Shown here: piece by piece, positions 3,965-24,665 of the stretch
How the letters are laid out: each line of letters opens with the position of its first letter
How positions within the stretch are numbered: the first letter of the stretch is position 1
From: Candidatus Hadarchaeales archaeon
Lineage (GTDB): Archaea; Hadarchaeota; Hadarchaeia; Hadarchaeales; Hadarchaeaceae
Reading direction: 5' to 3'
Assembly: GCA_038872135.1 (NCBI GenBank)
Contig: JAVZGN010000015.1
Coordinates: 1-24,665, forward strand
DNA: 24,665 nt
Program-made: the position numbers and the translations under genes
The notes under the pieces: model-generated
The model's database searches: none
What the model saw: only the letters and a program-made list of their open reading frames with translations
What the model was told of the DNA's origin: nothing

Positions 3965-4645
3965 TCAGCTACCGCCGCCCACGAGTTTTTTCATCAGCTC
4001 CATCGGTTCAAGAACTCTTCCTCCCGCGGCCGCCCTCATTGTGTCGCCATTGAGAGCATCGATGAGGATGAGAGTGCCGGCCTTTCTCCCGAACTCCACC
4101 TTCAGGTCCACAAGCTCCAGCCCACGAGATGAAAGAAATTCATGCACGGCTTCTCCAACTCTTCTCGCTGTTACTCTCATCTCCCCCACCTCCTTCCCGG
4201 TTGCTATTCCAAGCATAGGGATGGCCTGAGAGCTGAGGAGGGGATCGCCCAGGGCATCATTTTTCAGGGTGAACTCCACGAGGTCTAAGGGAGAAAGCGG
4301 TTTCACGAGAGGCCCATACCTCCTGAGAAAGCTCCCGTAAGCCAGCCTCCTGTAGATGACCTCAAGGGGGATTGGCTCAACCAAGAAAACTTCTATCTCT
4401 TCCTTTCCACTTCTTCCCACGAAATGGGTCTCCATTCCCTTTTCCTTTAACAGCTCAAAAAACATTGCAGCAGTGGCAGCACACAGCTCTCCCTTCCCCT
4501 CAGCTTCTCCAACTACAAAATCCCCGCCTGGATCTGGCCTCCCCGCTGAATCTCCAAGCACTGTATTTTTAAATCTCAGGAAAACTCTCCCTTCTCTCCT
4601 CAGCAATATCTTCGTCTTTCCCTCGTAGATTATTTCTTCCTTCAT
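3965..4645 (-). CDS. purC: SAICAR synthetase-like protein (divergent PurC)
   Basis: 'YEGKTK', 'THF', 'IPLEVIYR..AYGSFLRRY', 'EFTLKND..DP', 'LVDLKVEFG' motifs; C-terminal motif divergent. Confidence 0.8.
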   Translation of the reverse strand: MKEEIIYEGKTKILLRREGRVFLRFKNTVLGDSAGRPDPGGDFVVGEAEGKGELCAATAAMFFELLKEKGMETHFVGRSGKEEIEVFLVEPIPLEVIYRRLAYGSFLRRYGPLVKPLSPLDLVEFTLKNDALGDPLLSSQAIPMLGIATGKEVGEMRVTARRVGEAVHEFLSSRGLELVDLKVEFGRKAGTLILIDALNGDTMRAAAGGRVLEPMELMKKLVGGGS

Positions 4646-8199: not shown

Positions 8200-9990
8200 A
8201 TGAAGGAGTCTATCAGACAGCCAATCATCGCAGTCCTCGGGCATGTGGATCACGGGAAGACATCGCTTCTCGACAGGATAAGGGGGACATCTGTGGCAGC
8301 AAGAGAACCCGGAGCGATAACCCAGCATGTTGGGGCCACGGAAGTTCCGGCCGCTGCGATAAAAAAATTCTGCGGTCCCCTTCTAGAAAAGTTCAAGATT
8401 GAGATAAAGATACCTGGGCTTCTTTTCATTGATACTCCCGGGCATGAGGCCTTCACGAACTTGAGGAAGAGGGGAGGGGCGCTGGCAGATCTTGCTGCGC
8501 TGGTAATCGACATCAACGAGGGGGTGATGCCCCAGACGATTGAGTCCATAACCATTCTCAAGACCTTCAAGACTCCCTTTATGGTGGTCGCCAACAAAAT
8601 AGATACCATCCCCGGGTGGAAACCTTTCCCGCAGGCCCCATTCCTTGAAACAATTTCTAAACAGGGGAGAGGGGTTCAGCTGGCCCTGGATGAGAAAATT
8701 TACAGGCTTGTGGGCAGCCTCTATGAGCATGGGTTTGAGTCGGAGAGGTTTGACAGAATCACTGAATTCAGGAGGCAGGTGAGCATAGTGCCGGCCAGCG
8801 CAAAGACCGGGGAGGGAGTGCAGGAGGTCTTAGTTGTCCTCTTCGGGCTTGCCCAGAGATACCTGGAGGAGGAGCTGAGAGTGAGGGTCTCTGGAAGGGC
8901 GAGGGGTACTGTTCTCGAGGTAAAGGAGGAGACTGGACTTGGAGCAACCCTTGACGTTATCATCTACGATGGATGCCTGAGGAGGGGGGACCTCTTCGCG
9001 ACATGCCGGCTTGATGGCCCCACAGTCTCTAAGGTAAGGGCAATTCTGAAGCCCAAGCCCCTTGACGAGATAAGGGACCCTGAGGAGAAGTTCTCCTCTG
9101 TGGCTGAGGTCTACGCTGCAGCGGGGGTGAAAGTTGCCGCCCCGGGGCTTGAGGGGGTTGTGGCTGGAGCCCCCTTCCAGGTAATTGAGGAGGAGGTGGA
9201 TGCAAGAAGGGTCTGGGAGGAGATGCAGGCGGAGCTGGAGAGCGTGAAGATTTCTTCAGACATAAATGGGGTTGTTGTGAAGGCTGATGCCATCGGGTCT
9301 TTGGAGGCCATCGAGGGGCAGCTAAAGGCGAAGAGCATCCCCATCAGGCTTGCGGATATAGGCAGTGTTTCCAAGAGGGATGTTGTTGAAGCCGCCACAG
9401 TTGCCGCCGATGAACCTCCCCTTGGGGCTGTGCTGGCTTTTAACGTTGATGTTCTAGAAGACGCCGCGGCAGAGGCCGAGAAGAGGGGCATAGAAATCAT
9501 GAGGGAGAATGTGATTTACAGGTTGATTGAAATGTATGAGGAGTGGGCGAAGAAGAAGAGGGAGGAGGTTAGGGAGAAAAAACTTGAGGTCTACGTGAGG
9601 CCGGCGAAGCTGGCTGTCAAACCTGGCTATGTGTTCAGGAGGAGCGAGCCGGCCATTGTCGGTGTCGATATCCTTGGTGGAGTCCTGAGGCCGAAGGCCC
9701 CCCTGATGAAAGCAGATGGAAAGAAGATTGGCGTGGTGAAAGAGATTCAGAGGGAGAAGAAGCCGGTTCATGTGGCGAGGCTGGGCGACGAGCTTGCCAT
9801 CTCCATAGAGGGGGGAGTTGTGGGGAGAAACCTGGAGGAGGGAGACATCCTTTACACAGATATTCCACGGGATCATGTGCTGGTTCTCAAAAGGGATTTC
9901 AGGGAGTTCCTTTCAGGTGATGAGCTGGCGGTGCTGGATGAAATAATCTCCATCAAGCAGCGGGAAGATCCAACCTATGGGGTGCTGTGA
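8200..9990 (+). CDS. infB: Translation initiation factor aIF5B (IF-2)
   Basis: 'RQPIIAVLGHVDHGKTSLLD', 'ITQHVGAT', 'DTPGHEAF', 'NKID', 'VFRRSEPAIVGV'; start trimmed to ATG 8200; no intein seen. Confidence 0.97.
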   Translation: MKESIRQPIIAVLGHVDHGKTSLLDRIRGTSVAAREPGAITQHVGATEVPAAAIKKFCGPLLEKFKIEIKIPGLLFIDTPGHEAFTNLRKRGGALADLAALVIDINEGVMPQTIESITILKTFKTPFMVVANKIDTIPGWKPFPQAPFLETISKQGRGVQLALDEKIYRLVGSLYEHGFESERFDRITEFRRQVSIVPASAKTGEGVQEVLVVLFGLAQRYLEEELRVRVSGRARGTVLEVKEETGLGATLDVIIYDGCLRRGDLFATCRLDGPTVSKVRAILKPKPLDEIRDPEEKFSSVAEVYAAAGVKVAAPGLEGVVAGAPFQVIEEEVDARRVWEEMQAELESVKISSDINGVVVKADAIGSLEAIEGQLKAKSIPIRLADIGSVSKRDVVEAATVAADEPPLGAVLAFNVDVLEDAAAEAEKRGIEIMRENVIYRLIEMYEEWAKKKREEVREKKLEVYVRPAKLAVKPGYVFRRSEPAIVGVDILGGVLRPKAPLMKADGKKIGVVKEIQREKKPVHVARLGDELAISIEGGVVGRNLEEGDILYTDIPRDHVLVLKRDFREFLSGDELAVLDEIISIKQREDPTYGVL

Positions 9991-13166: not shown

Positions 13167-13243
13167 GGGCCGGTAGTCTAGCCAGGATAGGACGCGGGCC
13201 TCCGGAGCCTGCAGCACGGGTTCGAATCCCGTCCGGCCCGCCA
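13167..13243 (+). tRNA. tRNA-Arg(CCG), CCA encoded; anchor of the island
   Basis: GGGCCGG/CCGGCCC acceptor stem, anticodon arm CGGGC-CT-CCG-GA-GCCTG, T-loop GGTTCGAATCC, G73, CCA at 13241-13243. Confidence 0.96.
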
Positions 13244-13458
13244 CCGACAAGAACTCGGGGCAAAATAAACTGGTGAACCTCCCCTTACTCGCTCCCACCC
13301 CGCATCCACGGGCATCATCCTTTCAGGGGAGACCCCGGCAGTGCCGGGCGTTAGTCACCAATCTACTCTCCGTGGGGCGATGTTTATGGCTTTTGGCGAG
13401 TCAAAAGGCAGACGCTAAAGATCATGGATTGTTTGACATGGCGGTGCTACCCTCGGGC

Positions 13459-16400
13459 TCATTTGGCTGCGCTGACCCTCCGCTCGACCGTCAGGTCTAC
13501 TTGGCGCTGTATGTTCTCGACATCCGCATCCTTGATGCCCAAGATTTTTGCCACGGCGCGGTCGATCTCGTATATCTTGGGCTTGAGCTTCTCAATCTGC
13601 TCCTTGGTTGAGGCGCCACCGATTTTCCTCGCTTCATGTTCTAAATCGCCGAAAAGCTTAGCCAGCGATTTCAACTGTTTTTCATCCAGTTTGTTTACGT
13701 CAAGGATTGGCATTTCTCTGGCAACATTTATCTCGAAACCAATTATCCCGCCAGGGCTTTTTCTACCGTTAGTTTCGATGTAGGCCTGCGTAAAGCTTGA
13801 GTTGAGATATGCTAAAAGCGCTTTAGTTTTGATTTCATCAAAAGACACGCCTTTCTTAGGAATCAAAGCTATCAGTGCATGATAAGTAGCCACTGGAAAA
13901 TTACACCATATAAATCTGGTCTTGTACCATGCTTGGTAAATTGCAAATATCGGTGCTGTGACCACACCACCCAAGTCGTACCAACCATAGAATTTCTTCT
14001 TTTCTTTTGCCCTGTTTTTCGCTGCTTCAGTTTCATTTGCTAGCCTTCCTCCCCCTCGGCTTCCTCGTATCTTTGTTCTGCACTCGGTCTCGCCCCATTT
14101 GATGTAGCCCACAACCTCTTTGGGCAGTTTTTCTTTTGGAGAATGACCGATGAACATGTAACACTTATCATCTGATTTGTGCATCTCCTCCCAGTCCTCC
14201 TCGGTAAAAGTGAAGAAGTTGGTCTGTCTGGCGCTTGTTATGGCCGGGTACACCAAAGCCTCGTCCAAAGAGGCCTTTGGGTAAGCCCATTCTTCAAGCC
14301 CGAAATCTTTGATTTTGGACGGCGACAAGTAGTGGAATTCGCTGGAACCTGGATCTGGTCTTTTTCCATGAGAGATGGACCATTGGGCCCATGTGGTGTT
14401 CCCTCTTAACGGCTCGAAAATCTCGCCAAGTTTTATCATAAGCGGGTGTTCTGAAATATCCACAGTCTTGAAGAACATGTCTATCCATTTTCTATCTCTC
14501 GGGATCTCTCCCTGCTTAACGAGCCTAACCTCGAATTTCTCTGATTTTCCGGTCTGAATCGCTTTCAAAAGAGCGCCAACATCCTCCTTCTCGACCTCAC
14601 CGGGGATGTGTATAAAAACAGTTTCATTTTCTAGTCTTTTTGCTTCATCACTCTCCCGCTCCGCAAGCACTATGCACGTTGTTACCAAGGCATCTTTGAA
14701 AAGTTTGAGAGCAGTGTCAATAATTGCCTTTATCCTGAAGTTGTCGAGGAGAAAATTCCCAAACCCTATTCCATAATCTGTCTGGAGCCAGGTGTTGGAA
14801 ATGATCATTCCAAGCCGTCCCCCTTCTTTCAAAAAGTCCGTCGCATGCATTATCCAGTAGGTGTAAATCCCTGGTTCAACACCCCTCGAAACTTGAGGCG
14901 TCAACCCGTACTTTTTCATCTGCTTTTCCAAGTGTTTCTTGATCAACGCCTTGGACTCTTCAGGTATCTCAGTCCACCGGGTGTACGGAGGGTTCCCGAT
15001 TACTGCGTCAAATTTCGGGAACACTACCTCCCGCTCCTCGTCCCTCACAATTCCCTTGACCTTGTACGGGCTCAGAACCTTCTGCCCGGGCTTGATGGCA
15101 AAAAAGTCGGAAACCAGCACATTAAGGCTCGTGGAGGGGGCTCTGATGCTTTTGATCGATACCCCCATCGCCGTAAGGTGGGCCGGGAAGGGGTTTATAT
15201 CTAAAGCGTAGAGCTGGCTGAGAATTCTTTCATGAACCTCCGGGCGAACAATCGAAATCATGCTTGGACCAACTTTTAGCTCCCGAAGGCGCTTATACGC
15301 CTCCAGCAGGAACCCTCCACTCCCGACACCGGGATCCAGTACAATGTCTCCCTGGTCCCTGATGCACCATTTGGTTATAAGTTCGCAGACCCAAGGGGGC
15401 GTGTAAAACTGGCCGAACTGGTGCCTCTCCTCGGGCGGGATGAGCACCTCGTACATGTAGCCTATTTGATCCCCAATTTTGACGACATCAATGCTCTCAA
15501 GATCGTAAATGAAATCGTTGATATACTCCATCAACTCTGGGTCATCCGGGAGCAGGGACAGAAGCCTGTCATAAACTCCCGCCCGGAATATTGGCTCAAA
15601 ATCTTTGGTGGCGTCAATGGCTCTCTCAAAGTGGTAGCCGAGCTGTTCCTTGAACTTGGCCAGCGATGAATAGTCGAGCTCAACCATCGGGGGCAGGCTG
15701 TAGCTTTTCTCAAGAATCTTGCGAAAGATGAGTTTGTTCATCAAAACGTATGCCATCATGCGCGCCAAGATGTTTGTTGTCTGAAACAGCGCATCGGGAG
15801 TTGTCTTGTATCCGAGTTTTTCCACCTCGCTTCTAAAAATCTCGTCTTCTTTGAGCCTAGACTCCAGAAGGGGCGCACACCGCTCTGCCACCGTCCTCAC
15901 GAAGCCCCTGAACCTGCCTATCATCGCCTCGGTTGGTTCAGGTTTTGTCGGCTTTTTCTCGACATATTCTTTAGCAAGGGTCTCGAGTAGCGACTCAACA
16001 AATTCATGGCTCAGCGAGAGCTTCTGAACCTTGCCGACCATATGCTCTTCGAGGATGAAACGATACTTCCGTTTTATGGCATCCTTATAATTCCGCTCCA
16101 GCAGGGCCGCCCGATCGATATAATCCTCAATGTTCTTAGGGACTCTAAAAACCGCGATGTGCTCTGGGTTCGCCGTGGCAACAAATGGAACTTCGTGTTC
16201 GGGGTGGGAGCGCTTCCAGATTGCAGCGTAGCTCATAACCTGCCCAACCACGGAAGCATCGAGAGGGTCGAAAAGGGTTCCCCTGCCTTTCCCCTTTCGC
16301 TTGGTCTCGATAAACATGAATGGAATTTCGCCCCGCATAAAGAGTACTAGATCAACTTCTCTTCCGTCCACAGGATAGTCTCTCTCGACATGAGCGATCT

Positions 16401-16482
16401 CAATCCCGTGGAACCTTTTCCCTTTTGTAACCCGCTCGATCAATGCCCGTAACTCGTCCTGAATCTTGGCTTCCCGCTCCAT
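13459..16482 (-). CDS. Type IIG-like restriction-modification enzyme (fused PD-(D/E)xK nuclease, N6-adenine MTase, TRD)
   Basis: N-terminal 'EVDLVL...FIETKR'; 'GQFYTP', motif I 'DPGVGSGGF', motif IV 'NPPY'; 1007 aa. Confidence 0.88.
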   Translation of the reverse strand: MEREAKIQDELRALIERVTKGKRFHGIEIAHVERDYPVDGREVDLVLFMRGEIPFMFIETKRKGKGRGTLFDPLDASVVGQVMSYAAIWKRSHPEHEVPFVATANPEHIAVFRVPKNIEDYIDRAALLERNYKDAIKRKYRFILEEHMVGKVQKLSLSHEFVESLLETLAKEYVEKKPTKPEPTEAMIGRFRGFVRTVAERCAPLLESRLKEDEIFRSEVEKLGYKTTPDALFQTTNILARMMAYVLMNKLIFRKILEKSYSLPPMVELDYSSLAKFKEQLGYHFERAIDATKDFEPIFRAGVYDRLLSLLPDDPELMEYINDFIYDLESIDVVKIGDQIGYMYEVLIPPEERHQFGQFYTPPWVCELITKWCIRDQGDIVLDPGVGSGGFLLEAYKRLRELKVGPSMISIVRPEVHERILSQLYALDINPFPAHLTAMGVSIKSIRAPSTSLNVLVSDFFAIKPGQKVLSPYKVKGIVRDEEREVVFPKFDAVIGNPPYTRWTEIPEESKALIKKHLEKQMKKYGLTPQVSRGVEPGIYTYWIMHATDFLKEGGRLGMIISNTWLQTDYGIGFGNFLLDNFRIKAIIDTALKLFKDALVTTCIVLAERESDEAKRLENETVFIHIPGEVEKEDVGALLKAIQTGKSEKFEVRLVKQGEIPRDRKWIDMFFKTVDISEHPLMIKLGEIFEPLRGNTTWAQWSISHGKRPDPGSSEFHYLSPSKIKDFGLEEWAYPKASLDEALVYPAITSARQTNFFTFTEEDWEEMHKSDDKCYMFIGHSPKEKLPKEVVGYIKWGETECRTKIRGSRGGGRLANETEAAKNRAKEKKKFYGWYDLGGVVTAPIFAIYQAWYKTRFIWCNFPVATYHALIALIPKKGVSFDEIKTKALLAYLNSSFTQAYIETNGRKSPGGIIGFEINVAREMPILDVNKLDEKQLKSLAKLFGDLEHEARKIGGASTKEQIEKLKPKIYEIDRAVAKILGIKDADVENIQRQVDLTVERRVSAAK

Positions 16483-16576
16483 CTGTCAGCACCGTCTATG
16501 TTTTCATAGGATTTACGGTGTAACGGGTTAAAACTCTGTGGGGGGATATCGGTTGCCGGGGCGGTGGAGAGTGTGG

Positions 16577-16596
16577 ATCCAGTCCGGCCCGCCACC
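16577..16596 (+). repeat. att-like copy 2 of the tRNA-Arg 3' end
   Basis: atccagtccggcccgccacc vs 13226-13245 atcccgtccggcccgccacc, 19/20 identical. Confidence 0.9.
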
Positions 16597-16685
16597 AGCT
16601 CGGAAACCGACCCGTTGAGAAATGTTAGAAATGCGGCAGTTTTGTCTGCGGCTCACCCATGCGCGCTCTCACTTCCAGTAACCCG

Positions 16686-17111
16686 TCAACCCGAGATATC
16701 TAAAAATTGCCGTGGGGTCAGAATTTTCGCCCTCCTGAATCGTTTCAACTTGAGCAAGTGTTTGTCTCCGCTGACGATAAAATTGCAGTTAGCCTCCAAG
16801 ACGCACTCCAGTATTTTATTGTCCGCAGGATCTTCCTTTACGAGGATAACTCTTTCTTTTGGTTTAACCACCGTGCAGTTTTTCACTATGATTTGAAGTA
16901 TCTCTCGCGAGCTTATCCCGGCCAGTTTGAGCAACTCGCTGAGTTTGGGATACATCAGAACCCTCGATATTTCTTCCAAAATCTCTCTGGAAATGAACAA
17001 TTGTATTTCCCCGCTTTCGAAGATCCGGGAGAATTCTCTGCTCGGGGTCTTTTTTGTAAAAATCGACACCCATACATTGGTGTCTAAGACCGCTCCGACT
17101 TTCTTGCCCAT
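16686..17111 (-). CDS. PIN-domain toxin (PIN_3/VapC-like)
   Basis: 'VLDTNVWVS', 'ILEEI..VL.YPK', 'DPADNKILECVL...IVSGDKHLL' motifs. Confidence 0.92.
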   Translation of the reverse strand: MGKKVGAVLDTNVWVSIFTKKTPSREFSRIFESGEIQLFISREILEEISRVLMYPKLSELLKLAGISSREILQIIVKNCTVVKPKERVILVKEDPADNKILECVLEANCNFIVSGDKHLLKLKRFRRAKILTPRQFLDISG

Positions 17112-17353
17112 TCAAGCGCCTCAGAGATCAACTTGTCCACGTCGATTCCCTTTTCTCTTATGGTCTTCTCCATCCTTTCTCCTATTTCCTCTGCTGATAC
17201 CTCCAATTTTTTAAGCAGGATATCTCTGTCCTTGCTTATCACCAGAAGTTTTTCTCCAGCGCTTATCCCTAGTTTTTCCCTGAGTTCCTTTGGTATCACG
17301 ATTTGGCCCTTTGGCGAGACTTTTACCACGCCCTCGATTTTTTCATTCATCAT
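17084..17353 (-). CDS. AbrB/MazE-family antitoxin
   Basis: 'VKVSPKGQIVIPKELREKLGI..GEKL' motif; overlaps the PIN gene start; start trimmed to ATG 17353. Confidence 0.9.
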   Translation of the reverse strand: MMNEKIEGVVKVSPKGQIVIPKELREKLGISAGEKLLVISKDRDILLKKLEVSAEEIGERMEKTIREKGIDVDKLISEALEWARKSERS

Positions 17354-17436
17354 ACAATTCATACTTTTCTTACAAGTATCTAATGTCTTACTCATGAGAA
17401 ACAATCGATCGGGGTCGGTTTTCGAGGAGGTATAAA

Positions 17437-17454
17437 GAGTCCCGTCCGGCCCGC
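17437..17454 (+). repeat. att-like copy 3 of the tRNA-Arg 3' end
   Basis: gagtcccgtccggcccgc vs 13224-13241 gaatcccgtccggcccgc, 17/18. Confidence 0.88.
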
Positions 17455-17470
17455 TTTTGCGCGGGTTAGA

Positions 17471-17767
17471 TTACTTCATCACCTTGTACATCGTGTAGAG
17501 CCCCGCCAGCAGAGAGATTAGCACGACCCATTGGAAAGTCTCTTCTAGGACGGCATCCGTCTGCGCATCCACCACGCCGAAGTTGTATAGGAGGGTAGCA
17601 ACAGACAGGATTGCCACAACGAGGAGGGCCACCTTTACCCCGTTCACCAGCTTCCTCAGCGTCCCCACGGCCTTGAACTTCATCTGGAAGAACACCAGCC
17701 CGCCGATGGCAAACACAGCCTGAATGATGTCAATAACAGTCTCTACCGCCCCTGTCATCTCTATCAC
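17471..17767 (-). CDS. Small 3-TM membrane protein of unknown function
   Basis: 98-aa ORF with three hydrophobic segments; only intact gene in cassette 3. Confidence 0.7.
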   Translation of the reverse strand: MIEMTGAVETVIDIIQAVFAIGGLVFFQMKFKAVGTLRKLVNGVKVALLVVAILSVATLLYNFGVVDAQTDAVLEETFQWVVLISLLAGLYTMYKVMK

Positions 17768-17894
17768 CTGTAAGTTGCTGGGCAGGATTTTTATACATTA
17801 TGCTGACCGGTTCCGCGCCCTTTTAAGGATATACGCCTTCTTTAGATTGGCTGGGTTTGGGGCGGTGGTTATGAAAACCGAAGAAGATGAGAGT

Positions 17895-18020
17895 ATGAGC
17901 CCCAAATCAAATCCGAAATGCCCGGTCTGCAGAGCAGGCTCGTGAAAAATTGGTCTTCGACCGGTTGGCGCCGCTACAAGTACTCCAAGTGCGGCAAGAA
18001 GTTCGTGGATAAATTGCTGG
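17895..18020 (+). pseudogene. Degenerate IS1/InsA-type zinc-ribbon fragment
   Basis: MSPKSNPKCPVC, frameshift, then LVKNWSSTGWRRYKYSKCGKKF, resembling CPxC...vKNG...GxQRYxCxxCgxxF. Confidence 0.5.
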
Positions 18021-18107
18021 GTAAATTTAAGGCGAGAGGGGAGTACCCTGCTCCCGTCTGGATTAAGGTTTTGGTTCTGGAGAGGGCGGATTCAACCCTT
18101 TTTAGGG

Positions 18108-18129
18108 TCGAATCCCGTCCGGCCCGCCA
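18108..18129 (+). repeat. att-like copy 4 of the tRNA-Arg 3' end
   Basis: tcgaatcccgtccggcccgcca identical (22/22) to 13222-13243. Confidence 0.93.
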
Positions 18130-18213: not shown

Positions 18214-19431
18214 TCACAAATCCGTTACGCACACAAACCCCTTTCCATCCACAAACGTCTTCGTGACGACATAGTGCTCACGCAAACCTAATGACTTTGC
18301 AACCCGCGCCAGTCTTTTTATGTCTTGGACAGTCCCTCGTTCCTTCACCTCCACCGCAACGCCCTGTTTTTTCATGATGAAGTCAATCTCTGCCGTGCCG
18401 GTCCGTCGCTGATAATACATGATTTCATCCCTTCTCTTCAAAATGTTGAAAACGGCATTTTCGAGTAGCGCGCCTGAGGAAACCTGCGCGAAGTTGTTCA
18501 GGATTCCGGTATCACAGAGATACACCTTCCTCGCCCCGCTCACCTCACGATCAACATTCCTGCTGAACGGCCGCACCAGGTTGATGAAGTAGGTCGCCTC
18601 AAGAAACGAGAGATACGAGTACACTGTCTCCCGCGCTAGGCCCAGCTCGGAGGAAATTCTGCTCACGTTCAGCTTAGAACCGGTGCGTTGCATGAGCAGG
18701 AGGATCAGCTCCTGTAGTTTGCCGATGTCCCTGAAGTCGGCCAGCGATCGAACATCTTTTTCAAAATAGGACTTGTAGATGTCCTCCAGGAATGTCTTCT
18801 TCTCGCTTGGGGAGTCGGACAAAGCCACCCTCGGAAATCCGCCATAAGCCAAGTACTCTTCGTAAAGTTTTATGTTCTTCTCGTAATCAACGTAATTTTT
18901 GTGTCTGTCTTTTTCCGCAAAGGTTGTATAGAACTCCTTTCGCGCGTTCTTAAAAACCAGAAACTCTTCAAAATCAAGCGGGTACAGCTGGAACATCACC
19001 TTCCTGCCCGCAAGGCTTTCTGGAAACAGGTTTTTCAGGTAGAAACTGCTAGATCCCGTGATGAAAAACTGCACGTTGTAGTGGTCGAAAAGGTACCTCA
19101 CCGCTTTCGCGGTTGTTGGTGCCGCCTGCATCTCATCCAAAAAGAGGTAAGCTTTTTCCTTTGGAGAAACGCCGTATGGCCGCAGGTTTGCCCAGATATT
19201 ATCATAATTTTTTTCTTGGAAGAGGCGGGAAACGATCGGATTTTCCATATCAAGGAACGCCTTGTTTTCACTCGCGATCTCATCGAAAAGCATTTTTAGC
19301 AGGGTTGTTTTTCCAACTTGGCGCGCCCCAGTCACAACAACGATGGCTTTCTTGCCCACCCATTTCCTCAGTTCAGGCAGCAGCTTACGTTCGTAGAGCT
19401 GGTTCTTTTTTCTTTCCCCAATTTTGTCCAT
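18214..19431 (-). CDS. AAA+ ATPase with C-terminal DUF4143 (COG1373 type)
   Basis: Walker A 'GARQVGKT', Walker B 'LFLDEMQ', 'ITGSS', 'ESLAGR', 'YGGFP', 'KVYLCDTG', 'EIDF...VEVK'. Confidence 0.92.
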   Translation of the reverse strand: MDKIGERKKNQLYERKLLPELRKWVGKKAIVVVTGARQVGKTTLLKMLFDEIASENKAFLDMENPIVSRLFQEKNYDNIWANLRPYGVSPKEKAYLFLDEMQAAPTTAKAVRYLFDHYNVQFFITGSSSFYLKNLFPESLAGRKVMFQLYPLDFEEFLVFKNARKEFYTTFAEKDRHKNYVDYEKNIKLYEEYLAYGGFPRVALSDSPSEKKTFLEDIYKSYFEKDVRSLADFRDIGKLQELILLLMQRTGSKLNVSRISSELGLARETVYSYLSFLEATYFINLVRPFSRNVDREVSGARKVYLCDTGILNNFAQVSSGALLENAVFNILKRRDEIMYYQRRTGTAEIDFIMKKQGVAVEVKERGTVQDIKRLARVAKSLGLREHYVVTKTFVDGKGFVCVTDL

Positions 19432-19549: not shown

Positions 19550-19599
19550 AGCCCCACACACCAACATGTATTTTTACCCTTCTGCTATGGTTGTAGCTG

Positions 19600-19959
19600 A
19601 TGAAGCGGAGAATTAGGATAATCACGAATGACTTTGCGGTGGAAGCTGAACTCCTCCCAGAACGCCCAAAAACCTGTAGCGGGATTTGGGATGCTCTGCC
19701 ACTGGAGGCAGAAGTCGAGATCTGGAAGGAGGAGGTCTACTTTGAGATTCCTGTGAAAATTCCGCCGGAAAATCCAACCCCAAATACAACTGCAGGGGAT
19801 GTCGCGTACTGGCCGGAGGGCCCGGGCTTCTGCATCTTCTTTGGGAAGTCGCAGCCCCTGAGCCCAGTGAACACCTTTGCCAGGATTGGTAAAGGGGTTG
19901 AAAAATTCAGGCGGGTGAGATCTGGGGACTGGGTGAGGGTCGAGGCCTCCAAGGAATAA
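19600..19959 (+). CDS. Cyclophilin-like fold protein (TM1367/DUF369-like)
   Basis: 'PKT...IWDALPL....WKEEVYF.IP....EN....GDVAYWP.G.GFCIFFG..P.SPVN' signature. Confidence 0.85.
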   Translation: MKRRIRIITNDFAVEAELLPERPKTCSGIWDALPLEAEVEIWKEEVYFEIPVKIPPENPTPNTTAGDVAYWPEGPGFCIFFGKSQPLSPVNTFARIGKGVEKFRRVRSGDWVRVEASKE

Positions 19960-20122
19960 ACTCCTATAACATGGCAAAAATGAGGTGAAAGGATCGCTAG
20001 CCATTGCCCATTCTATTCTCAAATAGCTTGGCGCATTCTCGTGTCGCGTCCAGATTTTCAAATGCCGGCGGATAGATAAGGCCAAGGATTCAGGCAAGGG
20101 TGGAAGCCTGATTATGAATATA

Positions 20123-20332
20123 ATGGCAACCACAATTCAGGTAAAGGAAGAGACCATGAGGCTTCTCTAAACTTTGAAGCGGGTAAACAATGCGATAAGC
20201 TATGATGAGGTAATCAGGATGCTCTTGACCGAAAAACTCCAAATAAAGGAGATGTTTGGCGTCGACCGCGGGAAGCTGAAGCCGTTCACTGAGGCCGATA
20301 GGCTGGAGGAGCGGGATGCTGATCTTAGATAG
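20123..20332 (+). pseudogene. VapB-type antitoxin with in-frame stop
   Basis: MATTIQVKEETMRLL*TLKRVNNAISYDEVIRMLL...MFGVDRGKLKPFTEADRLEER; TAA at 20168-20170. Confidence 0.8.
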
Positions 20333-20700
20333 CTGCGGGTGGGTGGAGTACTTTCTTGGAAGCGAGAAGGGTGCCATTGTGAAGGGATATCTGGACAAAG
20401 AGCAGGTGGTGACACCCGATGTTGTGCCCGCTGAAATAGCGCGAAAATATACGCTAGAGGGAATCGCGGAGGAGGAAATTAGAAAGCGTCTTTATTTCGG
20501 CTAAGAGTGAAATCGAGGGCTTGGACGCGGAACTTGCCCTAGCGGCAGCTGAAGCGTGGTAGGAACTCATGAGTGGGGTGAAGAAAAAGCCATTCCCCAG
20601 CCTCGTTGACGGTATCCTGCTTGCAATGGCCAGGAAGCATGGCGCAAAAATTTTGACCGGCGACATTCACTTCAGGGGGACTGAAGGAAGCGATCATTCT
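20316..20700 (+). pseudogene. VapC/PIN toxin, frameshifted and with premature stop
   Basis: MLILDSCGWVEYF...AEIARKY, frameshift near 20497, TAG at 20560-20562, then SLVDGILLAMARKHGAKILTGDIHF. Confidence 0.85.
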
Positions 20701-20981
20701 ATGAGGAAATCCCGAGGAGCCGGGGCTGAGTTAAACTTGCCCACCAGAATTGCAAATACCTTAAAATCCAAAGTTGGCCTAAAACAGTTCCCTCTCAAAT
20801 CTTTTGACCTGGAGGTTGCTGCCCTTTGCTGACTCCACCGCTGCTGCTCAATCGGGGTGCCGAAAGTTTCTAGGTAATGGTTTCAAGGGGCCGCCCCACG
20901 GAAAATTTTATTCAGACTGCCGAGGGTGCACAGTCAGAACACTAACCTTGAAAACCAGTCCTACAGAAGCTATTCTTATGT

Positions 20982-21006
20982 CTCGCAACTCTGTCCCTGC
21001 AGAGGG
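20982..21006 (+). repeat. 25-bp direct repeat of the anticodon-loop/variable-arm segment of the adjacent tRNA
   Basis: ctcgcaactctgtccctgcagaggg vs 21076-21100 ctcgcaaccctgtccctgcagaggg, 24/25. Confidence 0.9.
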
Positions 21007-21010
21007 CAAT

Positions 21011-21026
21011 TTTATTTATGTTTAAA
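21011..21026 (+). promoter_or_regulatory. Candidate TATA box for the anomalous tRNA
   Basis: AT-rich tttatttatgtttaaa, 16-31 nt upstream of tRNA position 1. Confidence 0.45.
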
Positions 21027-21041
21027 CTCTTATTTATAGTT

Positions 21042-21128
21042 GCCGGGGTGTCGGAGCTCGGTCAAACGAGCAGGGCTCGCAACCCTGTCCCTGCAGAGGG
21101 TTCGCGGGTTCGAATCCCGCCCCCGGCA
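21042..21128 (+). tRNA. Class II (long variable arm) tRNA with Leu-type body and anticodon CGC (nominally Ala)
   Basis: Acceptor GCCGGGG/CCCCGGC+A73; D-arm TCG-GAGCTCGGTCAAA-CGA; anticodon arm CAGGG-CT-CGC-AA-CCCTG; variable arm CCCT-GCAG-AGGG; T-arm GCGGG-TTCGAAT-CCCGC; CCA not encoded. Confidence 0.88.
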
Positions 21129-21955
21129 CGAGACGACCATGCCAATCGTCTCGATCTGTGGGGAGGAGAAACGGGCGGCATCCCGTATCTTGGCCGGGCT
21201 CTCCGGAGTTCGGCCTTCTCCTTTTCATCTCAAAATTTTTGAAAAGTTTTCTTGCCTCATTTCTGCTTAACGGCAAAACCTTGCGCAAGGATGTAGCCGG
21301 CGGGTCTTTTCACCGAGCTTCAATTTCCCCGCTGATCGATGTTCTCATCAGCAACTGTTATGAAGGCCGCCTGAACGACCTAAGTGCTGTGGGTATGATT
21401 TTCTGATATCGTGCGAATTGCGCGTATGGGCAGCCGAAGGCTTTTCAGCTAAAATGGGAGAATCAATCGCTGGGTGGCGAGGCTGATTATGCTCGAACCG
21501 GTGGAGCAGCTTTAACACTTCTCTGAAGTATCTTTGAAAGAGTGGTGGGGTCGGCAGTTTTGAGGCTCGGAGGCGATAATTTTGATTGATGCGTGGAAAA
21601 TCTCTGAAATTTAAGAATTTCGGCTGTTTTGTTTTTAAAGATTTCTGAAAAAGCCGAAAATCCATAGTAGTAGCTGAAGGTGCCTTTTTATTTAAGCTTT
21701 ATCGGGAAAAGCCGAAAAGATTGGGATAAATTTCCTGTTTAAAATCGCTCGATTTGGCACATTCTAATTCAGAAAGCCTGCAGGTGTACACCTTGGGTGG
21801 GGGATATCGCCATTTGGCTGGGGGAATAGCCCTTGCTGGATCGGGGAGGTGTTATTTTAGGTTCTGGCCCATTCAGCAATTCATTTTGCAATTGAGAATT
21901 GGCGAATGTCCCCCATCTAACTGTTCTCGGTTTTTATTGCTGACAATTTTCCCTT

Positions 21956-21969: not shown

Positions 21970-24665
21970 ATGAGTAGAGATGAACTGTGGATCTGGTTGA
22001 AGTGGGCCGAAAAGGTTTTTGTTGGCTCCGGGCCCGAAGTCCCTTCTCACGCTGATTTTTCATCCCCCACTGGGAGCGGTGCCCCAAACATTGCAGGGGG
22101 TGCCGCTCCCTTCCCCCAAGCTGATTTTTCAACCCCCAAGAGCGGTCCCGATGACGTTGGAGGGGCCGCTCCCCCCACCTTTGTCCCCCTCTGGCAGAAG
22201 GTGGCTTCAGTCCTTCTCTGCATCTTCCTCCTCTTTTCTCCATTTCCTGCTCCTCCCGTTGCCGCCGCTGAGATTTCTGCCGGCGGGGGGGCTTTTGAGA
22301 ACACCGAGAATGTTGGAGGGGTCATCAGGCTTGTCTACGGGTACACTTCCGGGACATTTACCTCCGAGCCAATATATGTCGGGGAAAACTGGGAGGGGCT
22401 GGCGCTGTGGTGGAGGGAGGAGGAGCCGAGCCTCCTGCAGGAGATATCGCGGGCTGGGTTGCAGCCGTCCACTTCTCCCGCTGCAGGAAATGCCGGGAGC
22501 CTTGGGCCTGTTGCAGACGCCTGGACGAACATCACGATTTCGGGCTACTTGGAGAGCGCTGGAAATGTGAACGGGAGTTCTGAGAGCACCGGCGGAGGCT
22601 TCGGCCCCCACGCTGAATCCTGGACGAACATCACGATTTCGGGCTTCTGGCTTTCAGAAAATGGGGTTGGAACCGGTGAAGCGGAGAACTCCCTTCCAAA
22701 GTTTGCCGCCCTCGACGAAAACTCCCCGACGCTTGAGCAGGGGACTGACAACCTGAACCTTCCTGAAAACTCCGAGGTGCCAGAAAATGCCGTGGAGAAC
22801 CTTCAGGGTGGGGCACCGGCAGATAACACCATCCAGCAGGAAAATGCCGCCCCCTCCGCCAAAGAGAACATCCTCCTGACATCGAGCGTCAGGGTTCAGG
22901 TAAGGGTGAGCGAGAATGGAGAGGGATGGAGCGATTGGATTGGGCCTGATGGGAGCTCCTCGAGCTACTTTGAATCGCCGCCCGCAGATCTCTCCAGGCT
23001 TTCGGGGCGCTACCTGCAGTTCAGAATCTATTTCAGGAGCGATGGGCCAAGGCTCAGCGGGGCTTCCGGGCCGCTCGTCTCTGCTGTGATGGTGCTGCGT
23101 GGAGGGGAGGCTCCCGCTGAAAATTTTGCTTTTGAAGAGGTGGAGGAGCTCCAGGTGGGAGAGAAAGTCGGGGCGAGGATAAGGAGGCTCCAAAAAGGGG
23201 TGGGAAAAAGGGTTGAGCTCAGACGCCCTGGGCTTTCGCTGAAAAGGGTCTCGCTGAAAGTCCTTAGGGACCTAGACAATGTAGAGATCTGGGCGGAGCC
23301 CCTCGAGAACCTCTCTGGGATTCCCCCGCTGGAAAGCCGGAGGGTGGTGGAAGGGAACAATGAATATGTCTATGTTGGGGGCGGGCTGAAGGTCTATTCT
23401 TATGTAGACATCTCAACATCTGTTCCTGAGGGGCTTCTTGCAGAGGGCGAAGTGGAGTTCCGGGTTCCAAAGGGGTGGATGGAGGCCAACGGGCTGAAGG
23501 CCTCGTCATTTAGAATCTACCACTTTAACGGCTCTGGGTGGGAGGAGCTGCCGATAACCGCTGTCGGGGAGGATGGCGGGGAGGTCTTCGTCTCGGCCAG
23601 GACTTCCAGCTTCTCTCCATTTTCCTTTGCCTACGTCACGGGGGAAACTGTCTATGAGGGGGGAACAACTGGGATTTCTGGGGCGATGTACGATGATGGT
23701 GTTTATGAAAATATTTTTGAAAACGCATATAGATTTGGGCGGGAAGTCAAAACAGTCGAATTCATCATAGGGCAGGACACTAACACCAGAGCTGGCGGCT
23801 CAACTGTCTCTTGGCCCTTCACATTCTACATCCCTGAGTCGAACCCGCAACTTGAGAATGTGTATGTCCAGGTGACGGGTTCCAGATCCACCACGGCTGC
23901 CAACCTCCTCATCGCTGTAAACATAAACGGGACCCAGACCGGGACCTATGCGATGGCGCAGAGTCGCGAATCCTGCATGTTCAGAGTTTTCTATGACAAT
24001 GCGAAGAAGGTGATAACCTCTATAAACCAGGGGTGGAACGGACCATACACTCTCAATGTCACTGGGACTGGAGACACCTTTGCCCAGCTTGGTGCGAAGC
24101 TTATTCTCACCTACAGCTACGACGCCAGCTCCCCCATCCAGCTCAAGACCGTGAAATATCTGATAGATCAGGATACGGACGTAAGGGCTGCGGGGTCGAC
24201 CATCTCTGTCCCATTCGTCTTCAACATTCCCGAAGTCAGCCCGCAGCTGGACAACATCTGGGTTGAGGTGGAGGGGATAGACACAGCTTCCGGCGCAACT
24301 GCCCTGACGTACACCGTGAACATAAACGGCCAGCAGGTCCAGACTCAGCCAGCCATTCCGGACGGCGCTGAACTCACGGGAATTTTCACCCTCTACGAGA
24401 ATGCGAAGAAGGTGATAACATCCATAAGCCAGGGGACGAATGGGCCCTATACGCTAAACGTGGGAAACACCGGCGACAGCGTCTCGCTCGTGAAGTCGGA
24501 GCTTGTGGTTACCTACAGGTACGACGCTTCTTCAACTGTCCGAGAGGTGAAGACGGTGGAGCTCATCATAGGGCAGGACACTAACACCAGAGCTGGCGGC
24601 TCAACTGTCTCTTGGCCCTTCACATTCTACATCCCTGAGTCGAACCCGCAACTTGAGAATGTGTA
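21970..24665 (+). CDS. Large secreted/surface protein with PGF-pre-PGF-like domain and tandem ~133-aa repeats; 3' partial, absent from ORF track
   Basis: Open frame from ATG 21970 to the window end (898 full codons); hydrophobic helix KVASVLLCIFLLFSPFPAPPVAAA; 'VYSYVDIS...VEFRVPKGWMEANG...IYHFNGSGWEELP...ARTSSFSPF' domain; repeats starting about 23740, 24139 and 24541. Confidence 0.85.
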   Translation, partial: MSRDELWIWLKWAEKVFVGSGPEVPSHADFSSPTGSGAPNIAGGAAPFPQADFSTPKSGPDDVGGAAPPTFVPLWQKVASVLLCIFLLFSPFPAPPVAAAEISAGGGAFENTENVGGVIRLVYGYTSGTFTSEPIYVGENWEGLALWWREEEPSLLQEISRAGLQPSTSPAAGNAGSLGPVADAWTNITISGYLESAGNVNGSSESTGGGFGPHAESWTNITISGFWLSENGVGTGEAENSLPKFAALDENSPTLEQGTDNLNLPENSEVPENAVENLQGGAPADNTIQQENAAPSAKENILLTSSVRVQVRVSENGEGWSDWIGPDGSSSSYFESPPADLSRLSGRYLQFRIYFRSDGPRLSGASGPLVSAVMVLRGGEAPAENFAFEEVEELQVGEKVGARIRRLQKGVGKRVELRRPGLSLKRVSLKVLRDLDNVEIWAEPLENLSGIPPLESRRVVEGNNEYVYVGGGLKVYSYVDISTSVPEGLLAEGEVEFRVPKGWMEANGLKASSFRIYHFNGSGWEELPITAVGEDGGEVFVSARTSSFSPFSFAYVTGETVYEGGTTGISGAMYDDGVYENIFENAYRFGREVKTVEFIIGQDTNTRAGGSTVSWPFTFYIPESNPQLENVYVQVTGSRSTTAANLLIAVNINGTQTGTYAMAQSRESCMFRVFYDNAKKVITSINQGWNGPYTLNVTGTGDTFAQLGAKLILTYSYDASSPIQLKTVKYLIDQDTDVRAAGSTISVPFVFNIPEVSPQLDNIWVEVEGIDTASGATALTYTVNINGQQVQTQPAIPDGAELTGIFTLYENAKKVITSISQGTNGPYTLNVGNTGDSVSLVKSELVVTYRYDASSTVREVKTVELIIGQDTNTRAGGSTVSWPFTFYIPESNPQLENV
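23762..24665 (+). repeat. Exact 103-bp intragenic direct repeat (23762-23864 = 24563-24665), period 801 bp
   Basis: Base-by-base identity from tcatcatagggcaggacact to gagaatgtgta; the second copy runs to the window end. Confidence 0.95.

What the first reader, a model, noticed from the sequence alone, without database searches (positions are those of the whole stretch)
21042..21128. tRNA with leucine-type body but alanine anticodon (CGC)
Seen: an intact 87-nt cloverleaf with all stems paired, a long variable arm (CCCT-GCAG-AGGG), A73, a C3:G70 pair and anticodon loop CT-CGC-AA. Known: tRNA-Ala is class I and needs G3:U70. Archaeal class II tRNAs are Leu (A73, variable-arm recognition, anticodon largely not read by LeuRS), Ser (G73) and Sec. 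The D-loop and the TCCC...GGGTTC variable region resemble archaeal tRNA-Leu. The CGC is repeated in the upstream partial copy, so a single base-call error is unlikely. Inference: if charged by LeuRS it would insert Leu at GCG codons (programmed mistranslation), or it acts outside the ribosome as an aminoacyl donor, decoy or integration target. GCG still appears to mean Ala here (aIF5B G-A-ITQ at 8314-8316; L39e Met-Ala).
Basis: partly seen in the sequence, partly recalled or inferred. Interest (0 to 1): 0.85.

Follow-up and report, generated by a model that had tools for sequence, protein, structure and literature searches.

The report
Leucine-type tRNA with alanine anticodon
An uncultured hot-spring archaeon carries one extra, perfectly folded tRNA gene built like a leucine tRNA but reading the alanine codon GCG; it is not shared with relatives and does not change the genetic code, so it is at most a source of occasional alanine-to-leucine errors.

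Summary
Window 21042-21128 (+) is an intact 87-nt class II tRNA gene with anticodon CGC, A73 and C3:G70, and a 24/25 copy of its anticodon loop to variable arm lies 94 nt upstream. Models built here score it as leucine-type (78.9 bits) over serine-type (63.1).

The genome also holds a normal tRNA-Ala(CGC) with G3:U70 and a 14-nt intron. GCG is common (5292 codons, 23.6% of Ala codons) and aligns with Ala, not Leu. No counterpart was found in the 65 other genomes of the phylum.

Similar leucine-type tRNA(CGC) genes occur sporadically elsewhere. One is in an unrelated archaeon, which also has an upstream anticodon-arm copy. Five are in Gemmatimonadales-type genomes.

Best reading (0.45): an accessory body/anticodon-mismatch tRNA of recent recombinational origin. 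If expressed, the single LeuRS would charge it, giving at most low-level GCG-to-Leu misreading, like nematode nev-tRNAs.

Main rival (0.33): an unselected relic.

Expression and charging are untested. This scan noted comparable mismatched tRNAs before, on other DNA.

The parts
21042..21128 (+). 87-nt class II tRNA gene, leucine-type body, A73, C3:G70
   Evidence: ARAGORN. Rfam tRNA 54.4 bits. Leu model R1 78.9 bits against Ser model R2 63.1 bits.
21078..21080 (+). Anticodon CGC (reads GCG) inside the 7-nt loop CTCGCAA (21076-21082)
   Evidence: ARAGORN places the anticodon at position 37 of the gene. The cmscan alignment places it in the loop. A contig of run X1 has the same letters.
20982..21006 (+). 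Same-strand partial copy of tRNA positions 35-59 of the gene (anticodon loop, 3' anticodon stem, variable arm); 24/25 identical
   Evidence: the repeat finder family D7. Genome-wide mismatch scan: the next best hit has 6 mismatches.
21010..21023 (+). A/T-rich TATA-like box (TTTTATTTAT...) about 32 to 23 nt before the tRNA 5' end
   Evidence: An 8/8 A/T window at -34, at the same distance as the A/T boxes of most host tRNA genes. That it acts as a promoter is inferred.
21129..21153 (+). Hairpin directly after the discriminator base (CGAGACGA - 9 nt - TCGTCTCG)
   Evidence: Sequence. Inverted repeat I2. Its role is unknown.

Best explanation
This is an intact, accessory 'mismatch' tRNA gene: a leucine-identity class II tRNA carrying the alanine anticodon CGC. 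It is specific to this lineage. It arose or arrived recently by recombination through its anticodon arm, and the 25-nt direct repeat in front of its promoter is the trace of that event.

Shown: the gene, its leucine-type architecture, the lack of alanine identity, the presence of a normal tRNA-Ala(CGC) and tRNA-Ala(UGC), one LeuRS gene, GCG meaning Ala, and no counterpart found in relatives.

Inferred: it is transcribed from its own TATA-like box. The single host LeuRS, which in archaea reads A73 and the variable arm rather than the anticodon, charges it with leucine. It then competes weakly with the two cognate Ala tRNAs, giving at most low-level, tolerated GCG-to-Leu substitution. It may instead be largely kept out of translation, as reported for nematode nev-tRNAs. 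It is not a change of the genetic code.
For: - Fold and identity: a cloverleaf with all stems paired, and U8, A14, G15, G18G19, U33, A37, the T-loop and C48 in place.
- Isotype scores: Leu model 78.9 bits against Ser model 63.1, with correct separation of untrained controls.
- An A/T box at -34, as in host tRNA genes.
- One LeuRS, 961-aa frame, 1121 bits to TIGR00395.
- The anticodon loop differs from every host Leu loop at positions 35, 36 and 37 and has the A37 form seen in Ala tRNAs, while no stem is damaged.
- The design recurs elsewhere. An unrelated archaeon (G101) has an 83-nt Leu-type tRNA(CGC) beside its own class I tRNA-Ala(CGC), also with an upstream anticodon-arm copy. Five Gemmatimonadales-type genomes share a Leu-type tRNA(CGC) whose anticodon stems differ by paired changes.
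- Literature: nev-tRNAs with Gly or Ile anticodons are leucylated through A73 and the variable-arm tip (PMC3333845, passages read).
Against: - There is no evidence of expression, CCA addition or charging.
- No counterpart was found in 65 other genomes of the phylum, including 3 of the same genus at 88-95% completeness.
- There is no tRNA at the matching place in 5 relatives that share the neighbouring cyclophilin-like gene, nor beside 4 homologous vapBC cassettes.
- GCG is common: 5292 codons, about 2% of all codons counted. Efficient Leu insertion would be costly. nev-tRNAs, by contrast, target rare codons.
- It is only 64/87 identical to the nearest host tRNA-Leu, and its acceptor stem equals that of the host tRNA-Ser. 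Recognition by the host LeuRS is therefore not certain.
- The neighbouring genes are decaying.
Confidence: 0.45

Rival explanations
1. It is an unselected relic. Recombination at tRNA anticodon arms in a decaying accessory region produced a by-product that still folds but is silent, uncharged or irrelevant, and it will decay.
For: - It is a singleton among the 66 genomes of the phylum.
- A partial duplicate sits next to it.
- The window carries other recombination scars: three copies of the tRNA-Arg(CCG) 3' end, at 16582, 17440 and 18108.
- The adjacent vapBC pair has two in-frame stops and a frameshift.
- A family relative (G045) has a Leu-type gene with anticodon UGG and two acceptor-stem mismatches, which looks like a later stage of such decay.
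- The tRNAscan-SE 2.0 paper treats body/anticodon conflicts as 'probably not functional' but not automatically pseudogenes (PMC8450103, passages read).
Against: - None of its 25 stem pairs is broken except the usual 13:22 position, and the tertiary-pair nucleotides are kept.
- A promoter-like box sits at the right distance.
- The loop is a well-formed 7-nt anticodon loop three changes away from any Leu loop.
- The same design occurs in a second archaeon and in a small bacterial group with paired stem changes.
Confidence: 0.33
2. It has a role outside decoding. It could be an attachment site for integrating elements, a processing signal cut by RNase P and RNase Z, a decoy or target for an anticodon nuclease such as the neighbouring PIN/VapC type, or a leucyl donor for a non-ribosomal enzyme.
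For: - The direct repeat starts exactly at the first base of the anticodon loop, where one class of integrases crosses over. That class is recalled, not looked up here.
- In G101 the canonical tRNA-Ala(CGC) also has 11-13-nt copies of its anticodon-arm region on both sides.
- In G059 a 3' fragment of a tRNA-Leu begins inside the anticodon loop.
- A PIN-domain gene remnant lies 350 nt upstream.
Against: - No integrase, and no displaced 3' fragment of this tRNA, was found anywhere in the genome.
- The two repeat copies are only 69 nt apart, so no element lies between them.
- No conserved gene starts at the tRNA 3' end.
- The vapBC pair is broken, and its homologues in 4 relatives have no tRNA beside them.
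- No candidate tRNA-dependent transferase is nearby.
Confidence: 0.12
3. GCG is reassigned or dually decoded as Leu, in the whole genome or in a gene set linked to the tRNA.
For: The tRNA exists. The nearby AAA_14/DUF4143 ATPase gene uses GCG for 16 of its 26 Ala codons.
Against: - aIF5B: 12 of 15 GCG columns have an Ala majority in 29 orthologues, with cells 248 Ala against 6 Leu of 435. This is like GCA, GCC and GCU, and unlike the Leu codons.
- The ATPase: 9 of 16 GCG columns have an Ala majority and none a Leu majority among 120 homologues.
- A normal tRNA-Ala(CGC) and a tRNA-Ala(UGC) are present.
- GCG makes up 23.6% of Ala codons.
Confidence: 0.02
4. It is an assembly chimera, or a contaminating contig from another organism.
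For: - The depth is low, about 5.
- The last 31 nt of the tRNA differ by 1-2 letters from a tRNA of a far more abundant community member (records at depth 93-340).
Against: - One 447-nt contig of run X1 at the genome's own depth spans both flanks and the whole gene with 0 differences.
- The contig carries core genes shared with relatives: aIF5B in 40 of 41 genomes, the tRNA-Arg(CCG) neighbourhood, and the cyclophilin-like gene matched in 37 of 45 family genomes.
Confidence: 0.03

Closest known systems
[quoted passage not shown] 2012, PMC3333845; passages read)
   Same: A class II, leucine-type body with A73 carries an anticodon of another amino acid. It coexists with the normal tRNA for that codon, and the standard meaning of the codon is kept. 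Charging with Leu is expected through A73 and the variable-arm tip.
   Different: nev-tRNAs are eukaryotic. They are conserved across nematodes in many copies, carry mainly Gly(CCC) and Ile(UAU) anticodons, and tend to match rare codons. This gene is archaeal, single-copy and not conserved, and it matches a common codon. Its charging is untested.
Bacterial allo-tRNAs and 'irregular tRNAs' (Mukai et al. 2017, PMC5389517; passages read)
   Same: They are prokaryotic tRNAs whose anticodons do not fit their identity elements. They are patchily distributed, some lie near toxin-antitoxin genes or mobile elements, and their function is mostly unknown.
   Different: Allo-tRNAs have 8/4 or 9/3 acceptor/T-stem geometry and serine (G73) or alanine (G3:U70) identity. 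This tRNA has the canonical 7/5 geometry, A73 and a leucine-type D loop and variable arm.
Anticodon/isotype-model conflicts ('IPD') flagged by tRNAscan-SE 2.0 (Chan et al. 2021, PMC8450103; passages read)
   Same: It is the same annotation category: a high-scoring tRNA whose body and anticodon disagree. Possible causes listed there include code change, lateral transfer and pseudogenes.
   Different: The examples in the passages I read are human, fungal and one methanogen tRNA-Arg(ACG). I saw no leucine-type/Ala(CGC) case there. I could not see the supplementary tables, which may list more.
tRNAProA/ProRSx deliberate mistranslation in Streptomyces (recalled; only the listing and abstract start of the commentary PMC10365949 were seen)
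   Same: A natural tRNA with an alanine anticodon is charged with another amino acid.
   Different: That system has a dedicated synthetase paralogue and is conserved in a bacterial group. Here there is one LeuRS, no paralogue was found, and there is no conservation.

Membership tests
tRNA (Rfam RF00005) | Cloverleaf with conserved D- and T-loop nucleotides, scoring above the family threshold | tested here: met
   54.4 bits against a gathering score of 29. ARAGORN also calls it.
Archaeal tRNA-Leu (class II, LeuRS identity) | Discriminator A73 | tested here: met
   A at 21128. All 8 aligned tRNA-Leu of the phylum have A73, and all 10 tRNA-Ser have G73.
Archaeal tRNA-Leu (class II, LeuRS identity) | Leu-type long variable arm and 11-nt D loop (overall body) | tested here: met
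   Leu model R1 78.9 bits against Ser model R2 63.1. Untrained Leu control 84.6/60.7; untrained Ser control 64.6/82.6. The models are small (8 and 10 sequences).
Archaeal tRNA-Leu (class II, LeuRS identity) | Leucine anticodon (NAG or YAA) with G37 | tested here: not met
   The loop is CU-CGC-AA. All 8 aligned tRNA-Leu have A35 and G37.
Archaeal tRNA-Leu (class II, LeuRS identity) | Aminoacylation by LeuRS | not testable with these tools
   One LeuRS gene is present.
tRNA-Ala | G3:U70 wobble pair in the acceptor stem; class I body | tested here: not met
   It has C3:G70, no G:U pair in the acceptor stem, and a 16-nt variable region. The host's real tRNA-Ala(CGC), (GGC) and (UGC) have G3:U70.
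tRNA-Ser (archaeal class II) | G73, 9-nt D loop, longer variable arm | tested here: not met
   It has A73 and an 11-nt D loop, and the Ser model scores 15.8 bits lower than the Leu model. Only the acceptor stem GCCGGGG equals that of the host tRNA-Ser.
nev-tRNA | Class II Leu-type body with A73 and a non-Leu/non-Ser anticodon | tested here: met
nev-tRNA | Conserved within its lineage (nematodes), multi-copy, matched to rare codons | tested here: not met
   It is present in 1 of 66 genomes of the phylum and is single-copy. GCG is 23.6% of Ala codons. It works like a nev-tRNA but is not a member.
allo-tRNA | 8/4 or 9/3 acceptor/T-stem configuration | tested here: not met
   It has a 7-bp acceptor stem and a 5-bp T stem.
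Intron-containing class I tRNA (variable arm = intron) | Bulge-helix-bulge motif around the insert; removal gives a standard tRNA of matching identity | tested here: not met
   The insert is a plain 4-bp hairpin with a 4-nt loop and aligns with the Leu variable arm in model R1. By eye, removing it would still leave C3:G70, so there would be no Ala identity. I made no formal BHB scan.

The most novel reading that the evidence does not exclude
Leucine-type tRNAs with the alanine anticodon CGC are a recurrent, selected device rather than accidents. They appear independently or by transfer in archaea (this genome and G101, both with a copy of the anticodon arm placed just upstream of the promoter) and in a small group of Gemmatimonadales-type bacteria (paired changes in the anticodon stem). 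They supply regulated GCG-to-Leu statistical mistranslation or a dedicated Leu-tRNA pool. The upstream anticodon-arm copy would be part of how the gene is made, moved or switched, for example by recombination that deletes or restores the promoter and the 5' half.
Probability: 0.12. Interest if true: 0.8.

Novelty: new variant of a known kind. Interest (0 to 1): 0.45.

Why it matters
Natural tRNAs whose body and anticodon disagree are the raw material of genetic-code change and of deliberate mistranslation. Well-studied cases are nematode nev-tRNAs, bacterial allo-tRNAs and the Streptomyces tRNAProA.

My three literature searches and the passages I read did not turn up a leucine-type tRNA with an alanine anticodon in archaea. 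This is not proof that none is in print, and I could not see supplementary tables.

If this RNA is made and leucylated, an archaeon tolerates a competitor for a codon that makes up about 2% of its coding sequence. That would be a direct test case for how much ambiguity a small genome can carry.

The same odd layout in a second, unrelated archaeon also gives a concrete hypothesis about how such genes arise. If the gene is silent, it is simply a well-preserved recombination scar.

Tried and rejected
- **Variable arm as intron.** Rejected: it is a plain hairpin that aligns with Leu variable arms, and there would be no Ala identity after removal.
- **Dispersed repeat family containing the 25-mer.** The 13-15-nt hits on other contigs are chance. 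A full-length scan gives only the 20982 copy, and the next hit has 6 mismatches. My first fuzzy-regex scan missed the known copy and was discarded.
- **Decayed 5' half upstream of the partial copy.** Not significant: 305 of 2000 shuffles for X and 572 of 2000 for L115 reach the score.
- **C/D-box guide RNA on the opposite strand of the copy.** No boxes seen by eye; no formal search was made.
- **Displaced 3' fragment of X elsewhere.** The 14-nt match on C2 lies in unrelated sequence.
- **Conserved partner of the vapBC cassette.** 4 homologous cassettes in relatives have no tRNA within the stretches fetched.
- **Orthologous locus.** Synteny with two same-genus genomes ends at tRNA-Arg(CCG), and those genomes are only about 67% identical in DNA there.
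- **Close homologues of X in metagenome contigs (9 stretches) and viral contigs (11 stretches).** None found. Most hits were initiator tRNA-Met, or introns containing the motif.
- **RNA evidence.** No RNA holder was listed for this stretch.
- **Runs X2-X4.** These come from other hot-spring studies. Their contigs, about 90% alike, cover only 20362-20732 and 21586-21900. The part with the tRNA had no cover apart from short high-depth pieces of other tRNAs, and no contig bridges it, so nothing can be said about presence in those strains.
- **Thermodynamic fold.** The minimum-energy structure is not the cloverleaf (-50.1 kcal/mol, z -4.4 against 300 mononucleotide shuffles).
- **Protein search with the 182-aa minus-strand frame 19585-20133.** It found nothing. 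The real gene is the plus-strand cyclophilin-like frame 19600-19959.
- **Gene neighbourhoods of 4 Gemmatimonadales-type loci.** No shared neighbour.

Full report
**What is there.** The window is contig C15 of a 1,081,149-bp, 34-contig archaeal genome, 91% complete and 50.3% G+C. Earlier notes of this scan call it Hadarchaeota. I did not verify that name.

ARAGORN finds three tRNA genes in the window. One, at 21042-21129 (+), has anticodon CGC. Rfam's tRNA model matches 21042-21128 at 54.4 bits, against 61.2 and 60.3 bits for the two ordinary tRNAs of the window, and flags no non-standard pairs.

Read directly, the gene has these features:
- a 7-bp acceptor stem GCCGGGG/CCCCGGC, so C3:G70 and no G:U pair;
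- A73;
- a 4-position D stem (3 pairs plus G13-A22) with an 11-nt loop;
- a 5-bp anticodon stem;
- the loop CU-CGC-AA;
- a 16-nt variable region with a 4-bp stem and a 4-nt loop;
- a 5-bp T stem with UUCGAAU.

A 25-nt stretch running from the first base of the anticodon loop to the end of the variable arm is repeated at 20982-21006, 24 of 25 identical. A genome-wide scan shows this is the only other copy. The next best hit has 6 mismatches, which is within what shuffled cores give. A contig of public run X1 covers 20776-21222 without a difference, at depth about 5. That run is probably the source sample.

**Which kind of tRNA.** I built two covariance models from tRNAs of this phylum: 8 tRNA-Leu (5 of this genome, 3 of relatives) and 10 tRNA-Ser.

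| tRNA | Leu model (bits) | Ser model (bits) |
|---|---|---|
| This gene (X) | 78.9 | 63.1 |
| Untrained tRNA-Leu of another archaeon | 84.6 | 60.7 |
| Untrained tRNA-Ser of another archaeon | 64.6 | 82.6 |

The gene shares A73, the 11-nt D loop with GGUCAA and the variable-arm layout with tRNA-Leu. Only its acceptor stem equals that of the host tRNA-Ser, tRNA-Met and tRNA-Cys.

It is not a recent copy of a host gene: the best host tRNA-Leu is 64/87 identical. Its anticodon loop differs from all aligned Leu loops at positions 35, 36 and 37. The variable arm is not an intron (see Tried and rejected).

**The host does not need it.** ARAGORN lists 46 tRNA genes in the genome, including five tRNA-Leu isoacceptors plus tRNA-Ala(GGC) and tRNA-Ala(UGC). 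A pattern scan then showed a normal tRNA-Ala(CGC) at G000:C3:67755-67844. It has G3:U70, A73, an encoded CCA and a 14-nt intron after position 37. ARAGORN miscalls it as Phe or Arg. There is one LeuRS gene.

**GCG still means Ala.**
- In 698 long reading frames, GCG occurs 5292 times, which is 23.6% of Ala codons.
- In aIF5B, 12 of 15 GCG columns have an Ala majority in 29 orthologues. The cells hold 248 Ala and 6 Leu of 435. This matches GCA, GCC and GCU, and is the opposite of CTG, CTC and CTT.
- In the nearby AAA_14/DUF4143 ATPase, which uses GCG for 16 of 26 Ala codons, 9 of 16 GCG columns have an Ala majority among 120 homologues. None has a Leu majority. The others are M, V, V, I/V, S, K and E.

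**Distribution.**
- BLAST of the gene against 101 genomes (66 of the phylum plus other archaea) gave no counterpart. The best full-length hit is 76%, a tRNA-Leu(CAG) of the same genus.
- A pattern for the loop TCGCAW followed 12-30 nt later by the T loop matched in 33 of 66 genomes of the phylum. Every match other than X was a class I tRNA-Ala(CGC), with or without intron, or an intron that happens to contain the motif.
- A second pattern for class II bodies with a middle anticodon base other than A found, among the 150 matches listed (17 more were not listed), only X and one gene in G045. The G045 gene has a Leu-type body (82.3/61.2 bits), anticodon UGG and two acceptor-stem mismatches.

**Surroundings.**
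- Left of the gene, the 3' end of tRNA-Arg(CCG) (13167-13243) is repeated at 16582 (13 nt), 17440 (15 nt) and 18108 (22 nt). These copies bound cassettes with a restriction-modification methylase-type protein (13459-16482) and a PIN/MazE pair (16686-17404). Synteny with two same-genus genomes ends at that tRNA-Arg.
- Next come an AAA_14/DUF4143 ATPase (18214-19431) and a cyclophilin-like gene (19600-19959, +). The stretch holding the cyclophilin-like gene is matched in 37 of 45 family genomes.
- Then comes a broken vapBC-like pair. The antitoxin frame starts at 20124 and has an in-frame TAA at 20168. The PIN frame starts at 20316 and has a frameshift near 20500 and an in-frame TAG at 20560.
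- About 280 nt further lie the partial copy, an A/T box, the tRNA and a hairpin. After about 800 nt without a convincing gene, a large repeat-rich protein starts at 21970.
- Five relatives with the cyclophilin-like gene, and four with a homologous vapBC, have no tRNA nearby.

**The same thing elsewhere.** Most rows were initiator tRNA-Met, whose D arm contains the motif. Among the rest:

(a) An uncultured archaeon (L115 = G101) has an 83-nt tRNA with A73, a Leu-type body (69.7/55.6 bits) and loop CU-CGC-AA.
- It is 73% identical to that genome's tRNA-Leu(CAA).
- The same genome has a class I tRNA-Ala(CGC).
- It too has a same-strand copy of its anticodon arm (15 nt) 51 nt before the gene, just upstream of a TATA-like box.
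- In 401 sampled genomes of its class, only G101 has such a gene.

(b) Four Gemmatimonadales-type genomes have a bacterial Leu-type tRNA with the same loop.
- They share the same variable arm and T arm, and their anticodon stems differ by paired changes. None has an upstream copy.
- Two of the four also show a class I tRNA-Ala(CGC).
- In the order of one of them, 3 of 121 sampled genomes have the gene.

(c) A viral contig has a class II-like CGC gene with a poorly paired anticodon stem.

As a control for the upstream copy, I checked 202 distinct tRNAs with 300-nt flanks in all DNA held. Flank repeats of 12 nt or more were mostly neighbouring tRNA genes or downstream copies of 3' ends. Upstream copies of the anticodon arm were seen only for X, the G101 gene and G101's canonical tRNA-Ala(CGC).

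**Literature.**
- nev-tRNAs of nematodes are class II, A73 tRNAs with Gly or Ile anticodons. They are leucylated in vitro through the variable-arm tip, are weakly expressed and are matched to rare codons (PMC3333845, passages).
- Allo-tRNAs of bacteria carry anticodons for many amino acids and sit near toxin-antitoxin genes and transposable elements. Many seem unused in translation (PMC5389517, passages).
- Three searches gave me no archaeal leucine-type/alanine-anticodon case. Supplements were not visible.
- Earlier notes of this scan report serine-type tRNAs with Ile or Val anticodons in DPANN archaea, and a phage Leu-like tRNA(CGC). I did not check them.

**Reading.** The gene is real and leucine-type, surplus to requirements, and not part of a code change. 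I judge it most likely (0.45) to be an accessory mismatch tRNA that can be transcribed and leucylated. Its effect would be small because two cognate Ala tRNAs compete for GCG. In other words, it works like a nev-tRNA without being one.

Nearly as likely (0.33) is that it is an unselected, still-intact scar of recombination in a decaying accessory stretch.

A non-decoding role (0.12) cannot be excluded. The repeat that begins exactly at the anticodon loop, seen in two unrelated archaea, is unexplained. I could not make simple tandem duplication, an attachment-site core or a target-site duplication fit.

Expression, CCA addition, charging and ribosomal use are all untested.

Noticed in passing
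window 13167-18129: The 3' end of tRNA-Arg(CCG) (13167-13243) is repeated downstream at 16582 (13 nt), 17440 (15 nt) and 18108 (22 nt). These look like nested attachment-site scars. They bound a 1007-aa N6_Mtase/Eco57I-type protein (13459-16482), a PIN/MazE pair (16686-17404) and small frames. No integrase was seen in the window.
   Followed up: partly
window 13271-13360 (-): A DUF3800-X RNA motif (Rfam RF02984, 71.8 bits) lies directly beside tRNA-Arg(CCG), at the start of the inserted stretch.
   Followed up: no
window 20124-20700 (+): A decayed vapBC-like pair. The antitoxin-like frame has an in-frame TAA at 20168-20170. The PIN-domain frame (Pfam PIN 23.8 bits for 20316-20504) has a frameshift near 20500 and an in-frame TAG at 20560-20562. 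Homologous stretches exist in 4 relatives.
   Followed up: partly
G000:C3:67755-67844 (outside the window): This is the genome's normal tRNA-Ala(CGC), with a 14-nt intron after position 37. ARAGORN labels it Phe(aaa) or Arg(tcg). Many relatives have the same intron, while the three same-genus genomes have an intron-less gene. By eye, two ARAGORN 'tRNA-Leu with intron' calls (C3:10341-10435 and C24:12355-12448) look like intron-containing tRNA-Pro(UGG/CGG).
   Followed up: partly
L069:4248-4332 (G045:C55): A family relative has a Leu-type class II gene (82.3 bits Leu model, 61.2 Ser model) with anticodon UGG, one change from UAG. It has two acceptor-stem mismatches, is followed by a hairpin and is preceded by three copies of a GACTTTTT(AA/GG)ACA motif.
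   Followed up: partly
L115:6159-6241 (-) and L212:1489-1564 (-) (G101): An unrelated archaeon has its own Leu-type tRNA(CGC) with a 15-nt upstream copy of the anticodon arm. Its canonical tRNA-Ala(CGC) is flanked by 11-13-nt copies of positions 23-37, 52 nt upstream and 19 nt downstream. What looks like another tRNA 5' half lies further upstream.
   Followed up: partly
L098, L108, L141, L179 (G502-G505) and G611:C188:1016-1056: Five Gemmatimonadales-type genomes share a bacterial Leu-type tRNA with anticodon CGC. It has A73, no G3:U70, variable arm GGGC-GNAA/UAAC-GCCC, and anticodon stems that differ by paired changes. The gene sits at different loci in each. Two of the four genomes checked also hold a class I tRNA-Ala(CGC).
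   Followed up: partly
L067 about 4084-4160 (G059:C3:130083-130126): A 3' fragment of a tRNA-Leu(UAG)-like gene begins inside the anticodon loop and has no 5' half. This is what a displaced attachment-site fragment of an element that crosses over in the anticodon loop would look like.
   Followed up: no
window 18214-19431 (-): The AAA_14/DUF4143 ATPase gene uses GCG for 16 of its 26 Ala codons, against 23.6% genome-wide. Its closest database relative is 86% identical.
   Followed up: partly
L198 / L200 (one 53,117-bp viral contig): A class II-like tRNA gene with loop CTCGCAA but a weakly paired anticodon stem.
   Followed up: no
window 19585-20136: The long minus-strand frame (182 aa) is a shadow frame and has no homologues. 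The real gene is the plus-strand cyclophilin-like frame 19600-19959 (Pfam PF04126, 104.9 bits).
   Followed up: yes
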